The notes under the pieces: generated by a model
The model's input: only the letters and a program-made list of their open reading frames with translations
Databases searched by the model: none
What the model was told of the DNA's origin: nothing
Shown: positions 1,244 through 17,931 of the stretch, one piece after another
Layout of the letters: every line of letters begins with the position of its first letter
Position numbering within the stretch: the stretch's first letter is position 1
Made by a program: the position numbers and the translations under genes
Source of the DNA: an uncultured Pleomorphomonas sp.
GTDB taxonomy: Bacteria > Pseudomonadota > Alphaproteobacteria > Rhizobiales > Pleomorphomonadaceae
DNA: 32,000 nucleotides
Direction of reading: 5' to 3'
Assembly (NCBI GenBank): GCA_937868725.1
Contig: CALMMQ010000091.1
Span: forward strand, 5,663-37,662

Positions 1244-3231
1244 CAGCCTTCCCCCGCGATGGCGACCGGACGGGCGTGCCGGCCCGGCTTCGGCGCGCCG
1301 ACGCGCAGGCGGCGATCGGCCAGCGACAGGCCGCCGCCGACCATCATGACCAGCGCGCCGAGCCAGATCAGCGTGACAAGCGGCTTGTCCCACATGCGCA
1401 CGATAATGCTGCCGGGAGTCTGGCCGCTGTCGCCGAGGGTGACGTAGAGCTGCGAAAAGCCGTGGTTGCGGATCGCCGCCTCGGTGGTCGGCATGGAGCG
1501 CGTCAGGAACGTCCGCTTGGACGGGGCGAGCTGAAACTGCTCGACGCCGTCCTGTCGCACCGTCATCGCGGCCACGGTGGCGCGATAGTTGGCGCCTTTC
1601 TCGGCGCGCAGACCGTCGAAGCTGATCTCGTAACGACCAACCGTCTGGCGATCGCCGGGCTTCATCTCGACGATGGTCTCGCTCTGGAAGCTGGTGGTGG
1701 CGATGATGCCGAGCAGCGTCAGTCCGAGGCCAGCGTGACCGAAGGCGGTGCCGAAGGCCGACGACGGCAGACCGAAGAGCCGCCGCAGCCCGACGCGCCA
1801 GCCGACACTGGCGAAACTGGCGCGGGCCAGCAGGTTGGTGATCGCGCCGAGGATGACCCAGCTGGCCAGTGCCAGTCCGAGCATGGCGAGGATCGGGCCG
1901 CCGTTGCGCCACCACCAGACGAGGAGACCGATGAGCAGGCTGGCGGCCAGCGCCGCCCACAGCCGCTCGAGCGCCCCGGCGAGATCGCCGCGCTTCCAGG
2001 CCAGCTCGGGACCGAGCGGCACGACCAGGAGCGTCGCCACGAACAGCGGCCCGAAGGTCAGATTGAAATAGGGCGCGCCGACCGAGATGGCGCCGCCGAA
2101 GGCCGAGGCGACCAGCGGGGCCAGCGTGCCGATCAGCACCACGGCGGCCGATACCGACAGGAAGACGTTGTTGAGGACGAGCGCGCCCTCGCGGGAGACT
2201 GGCGCAAACAGGCCGCCGGCCGACAGTTCGCCGGCACGGGCGGCGAACAGCACCAGCCCGCCGCCGATGAAGGCGCAGAGGATGCCGAGGATGAACACGC
2301 CCCGGGCGGGGTCGCTGGCGAAGGCATGCACCGAGGTCAGCACGCCTGAACGCACCAGGAAGGTGCCGAGCAACGACAGTGAAAACGTCAGGATGGCCAG
2401 CAGCACCGTCCAGATCTTGAGAGCGCTGCGCTTTTCCATGACCAGCGCCGAATGCAGCAGCGCCGTGCCCGACAGCCAGGGCATCAGAGAGGCGTTCTCC
2501 ACCGGATCCCAGAACCAGAAACCACCCCAGCCGAGCTCGTAGTAGGCCCAGTAGGAGCCGACGGCGATGCCGGCGGTGAGGAACATCCAGGCCCCCAGCA
2601 CCCAGGGCCGCACCCAGCGCGCCCAGGCGGCGTCGATACGGCCGTCGATCAGCGCCGCGGCGGCAAAGGAAAAGGCAACGGAAAAGCCGACGTAGCCGAG
2701 GTAGAGCAGCGGCGGATGGATGGCGAGACCAACGTCCTGCAGCACCGGATTGAGGTCGTTGCCCTCGAGTGGCGGCTTGGCGAGACGCATAAACGGGTTG
2801 GAAGTCAGCAGGATGAAGGCCAGGAAGGCAGTGCTGATCAGCCCTTGAACGCCGAGCACGTTGGCCTTGAGCGAGGCTGGCAGGTTGCGGCCGAACAGCG
2901 CCACGGCGCCGCCGCACAGGCCGAGGATCAGCACCCAGAGCAGCATCGAGCCCTCGTGGTTGCCCCAGACGCCCGACACCTTGTAGATCATCGGCTTCAG
3001 CGAATGCGAGTTCTCGACGACGTTGAGAACAGAGAAGTCGGAAACGACGTGAGCCCAGGTGAGGGCCAGGAACGACAGCAGGATGGCGACCATCTCCGCC
3101 AGTGCCGCCGGTCCGGCCACGGCCATCAGGCGGCGTTCGCCGCGCGCCGCGCCGACGATCGGTACCGACGACTGGATAAGCGCCAGCGCCAGGGCCAGGA
3201 TCAGGGCGAAATGTCCGGTCTCGACGATCAT
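1243..3231 (-). CDS. ccmF: Cytochrome c heme lyase subunit CcmF/CycK (662 aa, polytopic membrane protein)
   Basis: ORF 1243..3231. N-terminus MIVETGHFALILALALAL... and the WGNHEGSMLLWVLIL and WGGFWFWDPVENASLMPWL (WWD-like) motifs are typical of CcmF. Confidence 0.95.
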   Translation of the reverse strand: MIVETGHFALILALALALIQSSVPIVGAARGERRLMAVAGPAALAEMVAILLSFLALTWAHVVSDFSVLNVVENSHSLKPMIYKVSGVWGNHEGSMLLWVLILGLCGGAVALFGRNLPASLKANVLGVQGLISTAFLAFILLTSNPFMRLAKPPLEGNDLNPVLQDVGLAIHPPLLYLGYVGFSVAFSFAAAALIDGRIDAAWARWVRPWVLGAWMFLTAGIAVGSYWAYYELGWGGFWFWDPVENASLMPWLSGTALLHSALVMEKRSALKIWTVLLAILTFSLSLLGTFLVRSGVLTSVHAFASDPARGVFILGILCAFIGGGLVLFAARAGELSAGGLFAPVSREGALVLNNVFLSVSAAVVLIGTLAPLVASAFGGAISVGAPYFNLTFGPLFVATLLVVPLGPELAWKRGDLAGALERLWAALAASLLIGLLVWWWRNGGPILAMLGLALASWVILGAITNLLARASFASVGWRVGLRRLFGLPSSAFGTAFGHAGLGLTLLGIIATTSFQSETIVEMKPGDRQTVGRYEISFDGLRAEKGANYRATVAAMTVRQDGVEQFQLAPSKRTFLTRSMPTTEAAIRNHGFSQLYVTLGDSGQTPGSIIVRMWDKPLVTLIWLGALVMMVGGGLSLADRRLRVGAPKPGRHARPVAIAGEG

Positions 3232-16089: not shown

Positions 16090-16338
16090 GTGCCCATTCC
16101 GCATGAACTCGCTGTAGAATTCCCTCAGGCGTTCGAGTTCATCCAGGCTATCGAGCAGGACGATCATTCGTTCTGCGGTGTTACGGGGGCTTATCAGCAG
16201 ATCAATCGCCGCATTTACCGGATTGAATCGCTGATCGAGCCGGCAAGTAACGAAGTACTGGATGAACTCAAGCGGCGGCGTGAACTCCTCCGCCAAGAGA
16301 TCGCGACCTTCGTCGCAACCAAAAGCGCAGTGGCTTGA
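16090..16338 (+). CDS. DUF465 (YdcH-like) small coiled-coil protein (82 aa), opposite strand to the GTA genes
   Basis: GTG start preceded by GGAGAAGG. PHELAVEFPQAFEFIQAIEQDDHSF...YQQINRRIYRIESLIEPASNEVLDELKRRRELLRQEI fits the DUF465 pattern (HEL..FPE...I..L...D..F..L...Y..LN..I.R.E......E.L..LKK.RL.LKDEI). The locus is lower in GC: I counted 50-55% in two 60-nt samples. Confidence 0.75.
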   Translation: MPIPHELAVEFPQAFEFIQAIEQDDHSFCGVTGAYQQINRRIYRIESLIEPASNEVLDELKRRRELLRQEIATFVATKSAVA

Positions 16339-16363: not shown

Positions 16364-16951
16364 CTATAGCCCGCGCCGTCCCCGTCCGACGGCGCGGGCT
16401 AGCATCACGCCAAGCTGCGCTTCGGATTGACGGAAGCTGTCGGCGTTGGGCGTCGTCACGTTGAAGGTGACGTTGACACTGCCGCCACCGCCCCGCACGC
16501 CAAGGCTGCCATCGGCCGTCCGGCCCAGCGGCAGGATGGCTTCGGCACCCGCTTCCCCCATCACCCCCAGCCCACCGTTGCCGAGGGGGAAGTAGCTCGG
16601 CGTCGCCACGACGCCGCCGCTGGCGAACGGGACGACACCACCCTTGGCGAAGCCGGTGAGACCCAGCAGTTGGCCGAACAGGTTGCCGGTGGTACCAGCC
16701 AGCGAGCCGGCCAGGTTCTCGATCAGCGACACCAGCGGCTTCAGCGATGCTTCCAGCGCGGCGCCCGACAATCGCAGCGCGACCTGCTTCAAGGTGTCGT
16801 CGAGCGAGCGCCCCTGCAACACGGCCGATTTCAGCCCGGAGGTCAGCGCCTTGCTGAAGGAACCAGCCGCCGCCTCGAGGGCGGCGAAGTCCTTGAGCCG
16901 GGCGCCGAGGTCGGTGCCAAGGGCCCGGGTATTCAGCGCGTCATCGGCCAT
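16364..16951 (-). CDS. GTA g11 homologue: short tail tape measure protein (195 aa)
   Basis: Position between g10.1 and g12. Ala/Leu/Gly-rich helical N-terminus, then FAKGGVV..GGVVATPSYFPLGNGGLGVMGEAGAEAILPL, typical of the GTA tape measure C-terminal region. Confidence 0.75.
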   Translation of the reverse strand: MADDALNTRALGTDLGARLKDFAALEAAAGSFSKALTSGLKSAVLQGRSLDDTLKQVALRLSGAALEASLKPLVSLIENLAGSLAGTTGNLFGQLLGLTGFAKGGVVPFASGGVVATPSYFPLGNGGLGVMGEAGAEAILPLGRTADGSLGVRGGGGSVNVTFNVTTPNADSFRQSEAQLGVMLARAVGRGRRGL

Positions 16952-17129
16952 CGGTGGTCCTCTCTCGATCGGGATAGCGGTTGAGCAGCGCCGCGAACTC
17001 GTCGCGGCGCAGCGGCGCGGGGCGGTGGACGGGCGCCAGATGCCCGATCACCGCCGCCAGTTCACGCGGGGTCATGGCCCAGAAGTCGGCCGGCGCCAGA
17101 CGCAGCACGCCGAGGCCGAAGCCGATCAC
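16941..17129 (-). CDS. GTA g10.1 homologue (rcc01693/TIGR02216-like tail assembly chaperone, 62 aa from a GTG start); possibly expressed as a -1 frameshift extension of g10
   Basis: GFGLGVLRLAPADFWAMTPRELAAV motif. The only available start is the GTG at 17129 (GTGA overlap with the g10 stop). Upstream, the same frame stays open and encodes ...SAPFPWDD with no start codon. Confidence 0.7.
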   Translation of the reverse strand: MIGFGLGVLRLAPADFWAMTPRELAAVIGHLAPVHRPAPLRRDEFAALLNRYPDRERTTDGR

Positions 17130-17521
17130 GTCGTCCCAGGGGAAGGGGGCGGATCGGCCGCCGCCGGAGCCGGCAAAGGGGAGGCCGCGCCCTCCTCGCG
17201 CGGGTCGACGCCGAAGGTGGCGGCGATGAGCCGGACGACGATATCGACGTAACCGGCGATACCGCCATCGACGTGCATGGTAGCGACGTCATCGTCGCTC
17301 ACCTGTTCGCCAGCCCCGCGCAGGCCGGCACTAATCACTCGCGTCGCGTCACGCGCCTTGAGCGAACCGCTGGCGAAGCGGCGGGCCAGATCGGCCAGGT
17401 CCTCGGCGCCAAAGGCGTCCTCGAGGTCGGCGAGCGCGCCGAGCGTCAGGCGCAGACGGCGTTCGACGCCGCCGATGACGGCGGCGATCTCGCCGCGATG
17501 GCTGTTGGTCATGGGGATCAT
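17126..17521 (-). CDS. GTA g10 homologue: gene transfer agent family protein / tail assembly chaperone (131 aa), with an unusual Pro-rich C-terminal tail
   Basis: NSHRGEIAAVIGGVERRLRLTLGALADLEDAFG...LKARDATRVISAGLRGAG matches the GTA g10 family. The last ~20 aa (EEGAASPLPAPAAADPPPSPGTT) lie in the region that overlaps the g10.1 frame. Confidence 0.8.
   Translation of the reverse strand: MIPMTNSHRGEIAAVIGGVERRLRLTLGALADLEDAFGAEDLADLARRFASGSLKARDATRVISAGLRGAGEQVSDDDVATMHVDGGIAGYVDIVVRLIAATFGVDPREEGAASPLPAPAAADPPPSPGTT
17174..17180 (-). other. Candidate -1 ribosomal slippery heptamer C_CCT_TTG in the g10 zero frame
   Basis: The minus strand reads tcc cct ttg in the g10 frame (the ttg codon is 48 nt from the stop, so it is in phase). 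This fits X_XXY_YYZ. The -1 frame from here reads PFAGSGGGRSAPFPWDDVIGFGLGVL... straight into g10.1. Confidence 0.4.
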
Positions 17522-17931
17522 CCTGCAGTGAAGGTCAGCGCGCCGGCCGATTCCAGCGCGATCTCGTAGGTCACTTCGCCGTCGTGCTGGCCGGCGTAGT
17601 CGAGGGCGGTCAGCTGGAAGGGGCCGGCGATGGTGCCGAAGTCGGGGATCACCACTTGCCAGGTGCGAAGCAGGCCGCCGAAGAAGATCGAGCGCACCGT
17701 CTCGTCGGCAGCCGCGTCCTTGAACAGACCGGTGCCGGACAGCGCCGCCTTGCGCGCGCCCGCCCCTTCCAGCAGTTCGCGCCAGCGGCCGGGACTGTCG
17801 GCGTCGGTCACGTCGACAGTCCCGGCGGAAAACGAAATCTTGCGCGTGCGCATGCCGGCCACGGTCGAGAACGAGCCTGCACCCGTCGCGTCGACCTTGA
17901 GCAGCAAGGCCCGCCCAGCTTGAGCTGCCAT
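17518..17931 (-). CDS. GTA g9 homologue: major tail tube protein, TP901-1 family (137 aa)
   Basis: GRALLLKVDATGAGSFSTVAGMRTRKISFSAGTVDVTDADSPGRWRELL...GEVTYEIALESAG is typical of this family. ATGA overlap with g10. Confidence 0.88.
   Translation of the reverse strand: MAAQAGRALLLKVDATGAGSFSTVAGMRTRKISFSAGTVDVTDADSPGRWRELLEGAGARKAALSGTGLFKDAAADETVRSIFFGGLLRTWQVVIPDFGTIAGPFQLTALDYAGQHDGEVTYEIALESAGALTFTAG

What the first reader, a model, noticed from the sequence alone, without database searches (positions are those of the whole stretch)
17126..17230. g10 to g10.1 junction looks like a lambda G/GT-style programmed -1 frameshift
- g10 carries an atypical ~20-aa Pro-rich tail (EEGAASPLPAPAAADPPPSPGTT).
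- g10.1 can only start at a GTG (17129) that overlaps the g10 stop.
- Upstream of that GTG, the g10.1 frame stays open for about 58 codons back to a TGA. By my codon-by-codon reading of that stretch it contains no ATG, GTG or TTG.
- Directly before the GTG this frame encodes ...GGGRSAPFPWDD. As I recall the rcc01693/TIGR02216 family, an FPW motif belongs to the conserved N-terminus, just ahead of GLG.LRL.P..FW.MTPREL.
- A heptamer fitting X_XXY_YYZ (C_CCT_TTG, 17174-17180, minus strand) sits in the g10 zero frame. A -1 slip there reads PFAGSGGGRSAPFPWDDVIGFGLGVLRLAPADFWAMTPRELAAV..., giving a g10-g10.1 fusion.

Tail assembly chaperones of siphophages are classically expressed this way. I am not aware that this has been shown for GTAs.
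Basis: partly seen in the sequence, partly recalled or inferred. Interest (0 to 1): 0.65.

Follow-up and report, generated by a model that had tools for sequence, protein, structure and literature searches.

The report
Frameshift-fused tail chaperone in a GTA
In this gene-transfer-agent (GTA) cluster, the second tail-assembly chaperone (g10.1) has no start codon for its conserved N-terminus, so it is most likely made as a fusion to g10 by a lambda G/GT-type -1 ribosomal frameshift; this is an expected phage trait that I found no paper describing for GTAs, though the literature check was incomplete.

Summary
g10 (17126-17521, minus strand) has a 27-aa Pro/Ala tail. The heptamer C_CCT_TTG (17180-17174) sits in its zero frame.

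The Pfam and TIGRFAM models of g10.1 begin at FPW. F[P/D]W is essentially invariant in 162 related loci.

Relatives fall into two architectures.
- **Own start.** g10 is short and g10.1 has its own ATG/GTG/TTG overlapping the g10 stop. This includes Paracoccus, which is in RcGTA's family.
- **No own start.** g10 has a long tail, there is no usable start before FPW, and a zero-frame slip motif with an open -1 frame is always present. The motifs are A_AAC_CCY (often followed directly by a stop), C_CCT_TTG (the window's clade), or C_CCT_TTC on the P-F-P-W codons.

The window's heptamer is conserved in its diverged relatives L019, L041, L173, L140 and L147.

A -1 frameshift giving a 193-aa g10-g10.1 fusion is the best explanation (confidence about 0.75). 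No significant downstream RNA structure is present; a GGAGG lies 10 nt upstream. This is a new member of the known tail-assembly-chaperone frameshift class. No experiment exists yet.

The parts
17518..17931 (-). g9, major tail tube protein. By analogy with lambda it is the presumed binding partner of the g10.1 (T-like) domain.
   Evidence: PF06199 E=1.5e-45 and TIGR02126. The binding role is inferred from lambda G/GT.
17126..17521 (-). g10, the G-like tail assembly chaperone (131 aa). The zero-frame product ends at TGA 17128-17126. Residues 105-131 form a Pro/Ala-rich tail that overlaps the -1 frame.
   Evidence: PF11836 Phage_TAC_11 E=1.4e-28, residues 9-104. The tail is 27 aa, against 3-7 aa in most relatives with an own g10.1 start.
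17191..17197 (-). Shine-Dalgarno-like GAGGAGG (followed by G17190). GGAGG at 17195-17191 ends 10 nt upstream of the heptamer and is a possible dnaX-type upstream stimulator.
   Evidence: Sequence. GGAG/GAGG lies 6-16 nt upstream of the slip site in 42 of 62 start-less loci (mode 10 nt), against 15% background in g10 bodies. The stimulator role is inferred.
17174..17180 (-). Slippery heptamer C_CCT_TTG in the g10 zero frame, the proposed -1 shift site. After the shift, G17174 is re-read as the first base of GCC.
   Evidence: Conserved in L162, L163, L019 and L041, and in L140, L147 and L173. C_CC.U_UU.G is shift-prone in E. coli (PMC4066793).
17145..17173 (-). Linker in the -1 frame, (A)GSGGGRSAP. 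It has no start codon and joins the slip site to the conserved N-terminus.
17136..17144 (-). FPW codons (TTC CCC TGG). This is the near-invariant N-terminal motif of the g10.1 family and lies upstream of the only available start codon.
   Evidence: FPW in 153 of 162 loci. Pfam and TIGR models start here.
17144..17147 (-). Secondary zero-frame C_CCT tetramer (C17147 plus CCT 17146-17144). A P-site slip here would also retain FPW. It sits where class D relatives carry C_CCT_TTC.
   Evidence: It is not shared with L019 or L041, so it is ranked below the heptamer.
16941..17129 (-). g10.1 as gene callers annotate it: 62 aa from GTG 17129, in a GTGA overlap with the g10 stop. It lacks FPWDD.
   Evidence: P0001 and P0002 were called this way. 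PF09550 E=1e-18.
16941..17521 (-). Predicted g10-g10.1 fusion of 193 aa. The zero frame runs 17521-17174 (116 aa, ...EEGAASPL), then the -1 frame runs 17174-16941 (AGSGGGRSAPFPWDDVIGF...TTDGR).
   Evidence: Inferred and the comparative data.
16364..16951 (-). g11, tape measure protein (195 aa), immediately downstream. The chaperone pair sits between tail tube and tape measure, as in phages.
   Evidence: NF058675 RcGTA_tape E=1.8e-43, 148.8 bits, below the 220-bit cut-off.

Best explanation
g10 and g10.1 are the G-like and T-like tail assembly chaperones of an RcGTA-type cluster.

Most ribosomes translate g10 to its TGA at 17128-17126 and release a 131-aa protein. A minority slip back one base at C_CCU_UUG (17180-17174). 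There, tRNA-Pro re-pairs from the rare CCU codon to CCC. Either tRNA-Leu re-pairs from UUG to UUU, or the slip happens while the rare UUG codon waits in an empty A site, and UUU is then read as Phe.

The shifted ribosomes read AGSGGGRSAP-FPWDDVIGF... through to 16941. The product is a 193-aa g10-g10.1 fusion that carries the conserved FPW N-terminus of the T-like domain.

By analogy with lambda gpG/gpGT, the g10 part would bind the tape measure protein (g11) and the g10.1 part would recruit the tail tube protein (g9). The frameshift efficiency would set their ratio.

- **Shown:** the sequence anatomy, the family membership, and the comparative pattern.
- **Inferred:** the shift itself, its efficiency, the partner proteins, and the role of the upstream GGAGG.
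For: 1. **FPW must be translated.** It is FPW in 153 of 162 loci with single-residue variants in the rest, and the Pfam and TIGRFAM models start there. In the window no ATG, GTG or TTG precedes it in the open 53-codon frame.
2. **Closest diverged relatives.** L019 and L041 keep CCCTTTG at the aligned position despite flanking substitutions and indels. They have no start codon near FPW: none for 43 codons upstream in L041, only a TTG 173 codons upstream in L019, and none in the 15 codons after FPW in either. Their g10 frame runs past FPW to +40. L173 (g10 66% identical) keeps CCCTTTGCCGG.
3. **Association across 143 non-identical loci.** An own ATG and a zero-frame C_CCT slip site almost exclude each other. 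With an ATG: 41 lack the site and 1 has it. With no start: 39 have it and 2 do not, and those 2 carry A_AAC_CCC_TGA. Fisher p is about 4e-20, not corrected for phylogeny.
4. **Frame-blind motif search.** AAACCC[TC] falls in the slip-competent frame 31 of 33 times, CCCT+stop 22 of 22 and CCCTTTG 5 of 5 upstream of FPW. In g10 bodies AAACCC[TC] and CCCT+stop never occur, and CCCTTTG occurs once, out of frame.
5. **Not a TTG start.** L056 and L065 have AAACCCTTAA, which contains no TTG, and Shinella has AAACCCTCCG. This rules out TTG initiation as the general explanation.
6. **Class D codon choice.** 15 of 16 class D loci fix the synonymous codons CCC TTT CCC, which creates C_CCT_TTC and T_TTC_CCT. 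Only 6 of 56 and 4 of 41 do so in the other classes.
7. **Rarity in the window.** In-frame heptamers occur 2 times in 3044 codons, and both zero-frame codons of this one are rare.
8. **Experimental support for the motif.** C_CC.U_UU.G is shift-prone and under-represented in E. coli, and C_CC.U is a shift-prone tetramer (PMC4066793).
9. **Upstream stimulator.** GGAGG lies 10 nt upstream, and this spacing is enriched family-wide.
10. **Downstream hairpins elsewhere.** Six of 41 class B loci have 10-17 bp hairpins 5 nt after the heptamer, with a compensatory change between L006 and L102.
11. **Position and absence from particles.** The genes lie between tail tube and tape measure. The RcGTA homologues rcc01692 and rcc01693 are not found in particles, as expected for chaperones (PMC5026251).
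Against: - There is no experimental evidence of any kind: no peptide and no reporter assay.
- The window has a GTGA overlap at 17129-17126, which is a normal arrangement for coupled re-initiation and could yield a 62-aa g10.1 without FPWDD.
- There is no RNA structure downstream of the window's heptamer beyond what composition gives (z = +0.2 and +1.5).
- UUG-to-UUU re-pairing is weak. U_UUG is only 1.8-3.6 times background as a tetramer in E. coli.
- About half of the relatives, including Paracoccus, express g10.1 as a separate gene, so a covalent fusion is not obligatory for this family.
- The association statistics are not corrected for shared ancestry.
Confidence: 0.75

Rival explanations
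1. There is no frameshift. g10.1 is an independent 62-aa protein initiated at GTG 17129 by termination-reinitiation at the GTGA overlap. The FPWDD codons upstream are an untranslated relic of a longer ancestor whose ATG, together with the g10 stop in an ATGA overlap, was lost by mutation.
For: - The GTGA overlap is a standard coupling arrangement, and gene callers chose this model (P0001 and P0002).
- Many relatives use NTGA-coupled own starts.
- A single mutation in an ancestral ATGA would remove both the start and the stop at once.
- L173 has both the heptamer and a GTG at -3, which shows that intermediate forms exist.
Against: - The protein would lack FPW, which is invariant in the family and is the start of both curated models.
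- A relic would decay. Instead FPWDD, the open frame and the heptamer are all kept in L019 and L041, where no start codon exists in the region (only a TTG 173 codons upstream in L019) and the g10 frame continues past FPW.
- Only a weak SD (GGA) precedes the GTG.
- All 41 loci with no start codon before FPW carry a slip motif with an open -1 frame.
Confidence: 0.15
2. A -1 frameshift occurs at a different site: P-site-only slippage of tRNA-Pro on the zero-frame C_CCU tetramer at 17147-17144. This lies directly before the FPW codons, at the position that class D relatives use. The product would be ...ADPPP-FPWDD....
For: - Class D loci place their slip heptamers exactly on the P-F-P-W codons, and 15 of 16 use CCC TTT CCC.
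- The window has C_CCT at that position.
- C_CC.U is a shift-prone tetramer in E. coli.
Against: - In the window this is only a tetramer (C_CCT_TCC).
- L019 and L041 have G_CCT there, which is not slippery, whereas CCCTTTG is shared by the whole clade.
- Tetramers are much weaker than heptamers without a strong stimulator.
Confidence: 0.07
3. The locus is decaying. g10.1 is a pseudogene or is unexpressed in this organism, and the heptamer is there by chance.
For: In-window statistics for the heptamer alone are only moderate, at about 2-4% by chance.
Against: - The whole cluster g5-g15 is intact.
- The g10.1 domain scores fully against Pfam and TIGRFAM.
- The arrangement is conserved in relatives at 66-83% g10 identity.
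Confidence: 0.03

Closest known systems
Phage lambda gpG/gpGT, and the conserved tail-assembly-chaperone frameshift of long-tailed phages (Levin, Hendrix and Casjens 1993; Xu, Hendrix and Duda 2004; summarised in PMC5009743)
   Same: - Two overlapping ORFs lie between the major tail gene and the tape measure gene.
- The downstream ORF is in the -1 frame and has no start of its own.
[quoted passage not shown]
- The products are expected to be absent from particles.
   Different: - The heptamer is C_CCU_UUG rather than G_GGA_AAG.
- There is no sequence similarity to lambda G or T; the families are PF11836 and PF09550.
- The element is an RcGTA-type GTA cluster, not a phage.
- In about half of the related clusters the T-like part is a separate gene with its own start, which is not the lambda rule.
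RcGTA g10 (rcc01692) and g10.1 (rcc01693) of Rhodobacter capsulatus, called 'tail chaperone 1 and 2' in PMC11409702
   Same: Same two protein families, same gene order g9-g10-g10.1-g11, and same cluster type.
   Different: - The literature I could read treats them as two genes. RcGTA itself could not be fetched.
- In Paracoccus, which is in the same family, g10.1 has its own ATG in an ATGA overlap and begins MSRGLDWPGLM.
- The window has no such start and carries a long g10 tail with a slip site.
E. coli dnaX -1 frameshift, as a mechanistic analogue for the stimulators (Larsen et al. 1994, from my own knowledge)
   Same: A heptamer with an internal Shine-Dalgarno-like sequence about 10 nt upstream. 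In the window GGAGG ends 10 nt before the heptamer, and this spacing is enriched in the family.
   Different: - dnaX also needs a strong downstream hairpin, and the window shows none.
- The dnaX shift produces a shorter product, whereas this one produces a longer fusion.
IS3/IS911-type -1 frameshifts and the shift-prone motifs tested in E. coli (PMC4066793)
   Same: C_CC.U_UU.G, C_CC.U_UU.C and the C_CC.U tetramer are experimentally shift-prone. Some class B relatives have a hairpin 5 nt downstream, like the IS stimulators.
   Different: The gene context is unrelated, and efficiencies in alphaproteobacteria are unknown.

Membership tests
Tail assembly chaperone pair with programmed -1 frameshift (lambda G/GT type) | Located between the major tail (tube) gene and the tape measure gene | tested here: met
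   g9 (PF06199) at 17518-17931, g10, g10.1, then g11 (RcGTA_tape) at 16364-16951.
Tail assembly chaperone pair with programmed -1 frameshift (lambda G/GT type) | The downstream ORF overlaps the upstream ORF in the -1 frame and lacks an own start for its conserved N-terminus | tested here: met
   The -1 relation holds. The frame is open for 53 codons with no ATG, GTG or TTG before FPW, and the only start (GTG 17129) lies inside the conserved domain.
Tail assembly chaperone pair with programmed -1 frameshift (lambda G/GT type) | X_XXY_YYZ slippery heptamer in the zero frame within the overlap, conserved in relatives | tested here: met
   C_CCT_TTG at 17180-17174. Conserved in L019, L041, L140, L147, L162, L163 and L173. 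Replaced by A_AAC_CCY or C_CCT_TTC in other start-less lineages.
Tail assembly chaperone pair with programmed -1 frameshift (lambda G/GT type) | A stimulatory element (downstream structure or upstream SD) | tested here: inconclusive
   The downstream fold is not better than shuffles (z = +0.2 and +1.5). GGAGG lies 10 nt upstream and this spacing is enriched family-wide, but it also encodes Glu-Glu and may be an ancestral SD.
Tail assembly chaperone pair with programmed -1 frameshift (lambda G/GT type) | Two products (short and frameshift-extended) made in a fixed ratio, both needed for tail assembly and neither present in the particle | not testable with these tools
   This needs proteomics or genetics. 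The only indirect support is that the RcGTA homologues rcc01692 and rcc01693 were not found in particles (PMC5026251).
PF09550 Phage_TAC_6 / TIGR02216 (rcc01693 family) | Score above the curated cut-off over the full model | tested here: met
   PF09550 scores 67.9 bits against a 23.4 cut-off, model positions 1-58 of 58. TIGR02216 scores 62.1 against 56.1. The full-length match needs the residues upstream of the GTG.
PF11836 Phage_TAC_11 (GTA gp10) | Score above the curated cut-off | tested here: met
   99.2 bits against a 27.8 cut-off, residues 9-104.
RcGTA-type gene transfer agent head-tail cluster | Collinear g5...g15 gene set with RcGTA-type tape measure, g12-g15 and peptidase | tested here: inconclusive
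   The ORF order matches, and the tape measure hits NF058675 but below its cut-off (148.8 against 220). I did not test whether the element is a GTA or a prophage remnant, for example by packaging behaviour or cluster size.

The most novel reading that the evidence does not exclude
RcGTA-like clusters have switched repeatedly between two ways of making the T-like chaperone. One is a frameshift fusion to g10, with the slip site having moved among at least three positions or motifs: A_AAC_CCY plus stop, C_CCT_TTG, and C_CCT_TTC on the FPW codons. The other is a separate, translationally coupled gene. If so, the covalent G-T link that is essential in lambda is dispensable or replaceable in this lineage. 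It would also mean that a large share of database 'rcc01693 family' proteins are annotated with truncated N-termini.
Probability: 0.55. Interest if true: 0.6.

Novelty: new member of a known kind. Interest (0 to 1): 0.45.

Why it matters
- **GTA biology.** It would extend the most conserved recoding event of tailed phages to the domesticated GTA clusters of alphaproteobacteria. In the literature I could read, the two chaperone genes are treated as separate ORFs.
- **Annotation.** Gene callers start g10.1 at GTG +5 or ATG +6 in about 40% of the sampled clusters, which cuts off the invariant FPW motif.
- **A natural experiment.** Closely related clusters either fuse the G-like and T-like chaperones by frameshifting or encode them separately. 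This makes it directly testable whether covalent linkage and a fixed ratio are needed for tape-measure-dependent tail assembly.
- **Limits.** For a phage specialist the frameshift itself is expected, so the surprise is moderate.

Tried and rejected
1. **Downstream stimulatory hairpin in the window.** Folding 48 and 74 nt after the heptamer gave energies no better than dinucleotide shuffles. The same held for the other class C loci. I rejected this as evidence.
2. **TTG in CCCTTGA as the general start of class B g10.1.** Rejected, because L056 and L065 (TAA), Shinella (CCG), L012 (TCG) and others lack a TTG but keep the slip motif. It remains possible in individual loci such as L181.
3. **Prior literature.** I ran nine full-text searches and read about a dozen papers. 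None states a g10/g10.1 frameshift in a GTA. Hynes 2016 proposes one only for rcc01079/rcc01080. Xu et al. 2004, Lang and Beatty 2007, and Lang et al. 2012 and 2017 are not held, so prior mention cannot be excluded.
4. **Solved structures.** A sequence search gave only spurious DARPin matches. PHROGs gave only 'tail protein' for g10.
5. **Phage homologues with an annotated frameshift.** There were only 2 hits in 50,697 phage records, both GTA-like or unannotated.
6. **RcGTA of R. capsulatus itself.** Paracoccus served as the proxy.
7. **Structure prediction.** Not run, because it would not discriminate between frameshift and re-initiation.
Full report
**What is in the window.**

The region is part of an RcGTA-type head-tail cluster on the minus strand. 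Its genes are:
- g9, tail tube: 17518-17931, PF06199;
- g10: 17126-17521, PF11836 Phage_TAC_11;
- g10.1: annotated 16941-17129, PF09550 Phage_TAC_6 and TIGR02216 'rcc01693 family';
- g11, tape measure: 16364-16951, NF058675 but below its cut-off;
- g12-g15 further on.

g10 ends ...ATFGVDPREEGAASPLPAPAAADPPPSPGTT*. Its Pfam domain stops at residue 104, which leaves a 27-aa Pro/Ala tail.

The g10.1 frame is -1 relative to g10. It reads ...GLPFAGSGGGRSAPFPWDD before the GTG. That GTG overlaps the g10 stop as GTGA.

The heptamer CCCTTTG lies at 17180-17174, phased C_CCT_TTG in the g10 frame.

**Is it more than chance?**

In 3044 codons of the cluster's genes there are only two in-frame X_XXY_YYZ heptamers, one of them this one. 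The chance of one falling in the 58-codon overlap is about 2-4%. Its zero-frame codons are both rare: CCT is 4.8% of Pro codons and TTG is 5.4% of Leu codons. This is suggestive but not decisive on its own.

**FPW belongs to the protein.**

Both curated models of g10.1 start at (P)FPW, 5-6 residues upstream of the GTG. I collected relatives from several sources:
- 80 loci from species-representative genomes;
- 80 from IMG/VR;
- further loci from phage, plasmid and metagenome collections and from look-ups of near-identical proteins.

Of the 162 loci screened for the motif, it is FPW in 153 and a single-residue variant (FDW, LPW, FNW, FSW or FHW) in the other 9. A protein started at the window's GTG would lack this motif.

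**Two architectures in the family.**

I analysed 143 non-identical loci with an adjacent g10.

*Class A: own start.* There are 56 loci in the -1 frame relation and 25 in other frame relations. g10 stops 3-7 residues after its conserved ATFG motif. g10.1 has its own start, mostly an ATG three codons before FPW in an ATGA overlap. Paracoccus, which is in RcGTA's own family, is of this type...IEGT* overlapping ATG, then MSRGLDWPGLM. This probably explains why the GTA literature speaks of two chaperone genes (PMC11409702).

*Start-less classes B, C and D.* These 62 loci have a g10 tail of 7-65 residues and no ATG before FPW. In 41 of them there is no ATG, GTG or TTG at all. In the other 21 the only candidate is a GTG or TTG, often the TTG inside CCCTTGA. 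Every one has a zero-frame slip motif from which the -1 frame is open to FPW.
- **Class B (41 loci):** A_AAC_CCT or A_AAC_CCC. It is often followed at once by TGA, TAA or TAG, and sometimes by a sense codon.
- **Class C (5 loci: the window, L019 Pleomorphomonas, L041, L140, L147):** C_CCT_TTG.
- **Class D (16 loci):** the g10 frame runs past FPW to +16 or beyond, and the slip heptamers C_CCT_TTC and T_TTC_CCT are formed by the P-F-P-W codons themselves.

**Tests of the pattern.**

1. An own ATG and a zero-frame C_CCT site almost exclude each other. With an ATG, 41 loci lack the site and 1 has it. With no start, 39 have it and 2 do not, and those 2 carry A_AAC_CCC_TGA. Fisher p is about 4e-20, but it is not corrected for shared ancestry.
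2. A frame-blind motif search in the 144 nt upstream of FPW found AAACCC[TC] in the slip-competent frame 31 of 33 times, CCCT+stop 22 of 22 times and CCCTTTG 5 of 5 times. In g10 bodies the first two never occur, and CCCTTTG occurs once, out of frame.
3. The TTG inside CCCTTGA cannot be the general start. L056 and L065 have CCCTTAA, Shinella has CCCTCCG, and L012 has CCCTTCG.
4. Class D fixes the synonymous codons CCC TTT CCC in 15 of 16 loci, against 6 of 56 in class A and 4 of 41 in class B.
5. An SD-like GGAG or GAGG ends 6-16 nt (mode 10) upstream of the heptamer in 42 of 62 loci, against 15% background. The window has GGAGG at 17195-17191 with a 10-nt spacer.
6. Six of 41 class B loci have 10-17 bp hairpins starting 5 nt after the heptamer (z from -2.5 to -5). 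L006 and L102 differ by a compensatory C:G to U:A change.

**The window's own clade.**

L162 and L163 are near-identical to the window. L019 and L041 have g10 79-83% identical. They keep CCCTTTG at the aligned position despite indels and substitutions on both sides. Neither has a start codon near FPW: L041 has none in its 43 open codons upstream, L019 has only a TTG 173 codons upstream, and neither has one in the 15 codons after FPW. Their g10 frame continues to +40. For them a frameshift is the only canonical way to translate the conserved half of g10.1. L173 (g10 66% identical) keeps CCCTTTGCCGG and also has a GTG at -3, so it looks like an intermediate form.

**Mechanism.**

The best-supported model is a lambda G/GT-type -1 programmed frameshift at C_CCU_UUG. 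It would yield a 193-aa fusion: 116 aa of g10 ending ...EEGAASPL (or ...SPF if the slip occurs with an empty A site), followed by AGSGGGRSAPFPWDDVIGF...TTDGR.

The element shared by all start-less classes is a zero-frame C_CCU or C_CCC, on which tRNA-Pro can re-pair to CCC. It is usually followed by a slowly decoded codon, either a stop or the rare UUG, or it is embedded in a full heptamer.

In E. coli, C_CC.U_UU.G is shift-prone at more than 0.1% without stimulators and is under-represented in genes. C_CC.U_UU.C is highly efficient, and C_CC.U is among the six active tetramers (PMC4066793).

The window has no downstream structure beyond what its composition gives. I therefore expect a low efficiency, which is what a G:GT-type ratio requires (about 30:1 in lambda; PMC5009743).

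The roles of the two domains, g10 binding the tape measure and g10.1 recruiting the tube protein, are inferred from lambda. The only indirect support is that the RcGTA homologues are absent from particles (PMC5026251).

**Rivals.**

- **Re-initiation at the GTGA overlap, giving a 62-aa protein without FPW.** This cannot be excluded for the window and may coexist with the frameshift. It does not explain the conservation of FPWDD, the open frame and the heptamer in start-less relatives. Confidence 0.15.
- **A slip at the C_CCT tetramer at 17147-17144, directly before FPW.** This is possible, but the tetramer is not shared with L019 or L041. Confidence 0.07.
- **Gene decay.** This is unlikely because the cluster is intact. 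Confidence 0.03.

**Comparison with what is known.**

The kind is well known: the conserved -1 frameshift of tail assembly chaperone genes upstream of the tape measure gene (Levin 1993 and Xu 2004, as summarised in PMC5009743). The defining features I could test were met: gene position, -1 overlap without an own start, a conserved heptamer and TAC-family membership. The stimulator test was inconclusive, and the two-product test cannot be done with these tools.

In nine full-text searches I found no paper that states this for GTA g10/g10.1. Hynes 2016 proposes a frameshift only for the head-spike genes rcc01079 and rcc01080. Xu 2004 and several Lang reviews are not in the held library, so an earlier mention cannot be excluded.

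**Verdict.**

It is a new member of a known kind and of moderate interest. The more interesting by-product is that related GTA clusters alternate between a frameshift-fused and a split chaperone pair, and that the slip site has moved during evolution.

Noticed in passing
window 16090-16338 (+): An 82-aa ORF on the opposite strand sits in the gap between g11 and g12. In the near-identical loci L162 and L163 the equivalent gene carries a weak PF04325 (DUF465) hit. It looks like a non-GTA gene inserted inside the tail module and kept in relatives.
   Followed up: partly
window 16364-16951 (-): The tape measure protein is only 195 aa. It matches the RcGTA tape-measure model (NF058675) from model position 49 onward at 148.8 bits, below the 220-bit cut-off, and it has no Pfam hit.
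   Followed up: no
L013 (JAWKWC010000002.1), around 2930-3200: In this Hyphomicrobiaceae MAG the g10 domain and g10.1 are in the same frame (…LAATFG…RP-FPWDDVM…, g10 stop at +198). This is either a natural in-frame fusion or a 1-nt assembly error in a class D locus. NCBI calls a 96-aa 'phage tail assembly chaperone' there (P0108).
   Followed up: partly
L006 2956-3008, L011, L023, L024, L102, L146: A strong hairpin (10-17 bp, z from -2.5 to -5) starts 5 nt after the A_AAC_CCT-TGA site. L006 and L102 differ by a compensatory change in the stem (GCCGC.../...GCGGC against GCCGT.../...ACGGC). Nearly all class B loci also keep GCCGC 5-6 nt after the slip site, whether or not they have the hairpin.
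   Followed up: partly
L081 (MW091529.1 'Bacteriophage sp. 103231') 2440-2520: This 18-kb 'phage' record from sewage is an RcGTA-like cluster. g10 ends AAACCCTTGA, and the annotated g10.1 (QPB10657.1) starts at the ATG six codons after the F of FPW, so FPW is left unannotated. The 54-aa database proteins P0080 and P0113 may be truncated in the same way; I did not check their sequences.
   Followed up: partly
L164/L165 (Paracoccus denitrificans and P. versutus second replicons): The Rhodobacterales version has LDW in place of FPW, an insertion (GLGPVRLGGLGLRPAEFW), and its own ATG in an ATGA overlap. No slip site is present. PLSDB lists no genes there.
   Followed up: partly
L181 (Ga0193743_1050953), about 20-40 nt upstream of FPW: The site reads AAGCCGTTGA instead of AAACCCTTGA. 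The -1 frame still reads K-P-L, but the zero frame is no longer slippery and the TTG overlaps the TGA. This may be a lineage caught switching from a frameshift to a TTG start.
   Followed up: no
L125, L133, L134 (IMG/VR): The slip region is CAAAAAACCCT, which forms overlapping heptamers A_AAA_AAC and A_AAC_CCT. The A-run could also allow transcriptional slippage.
   Followed up: no
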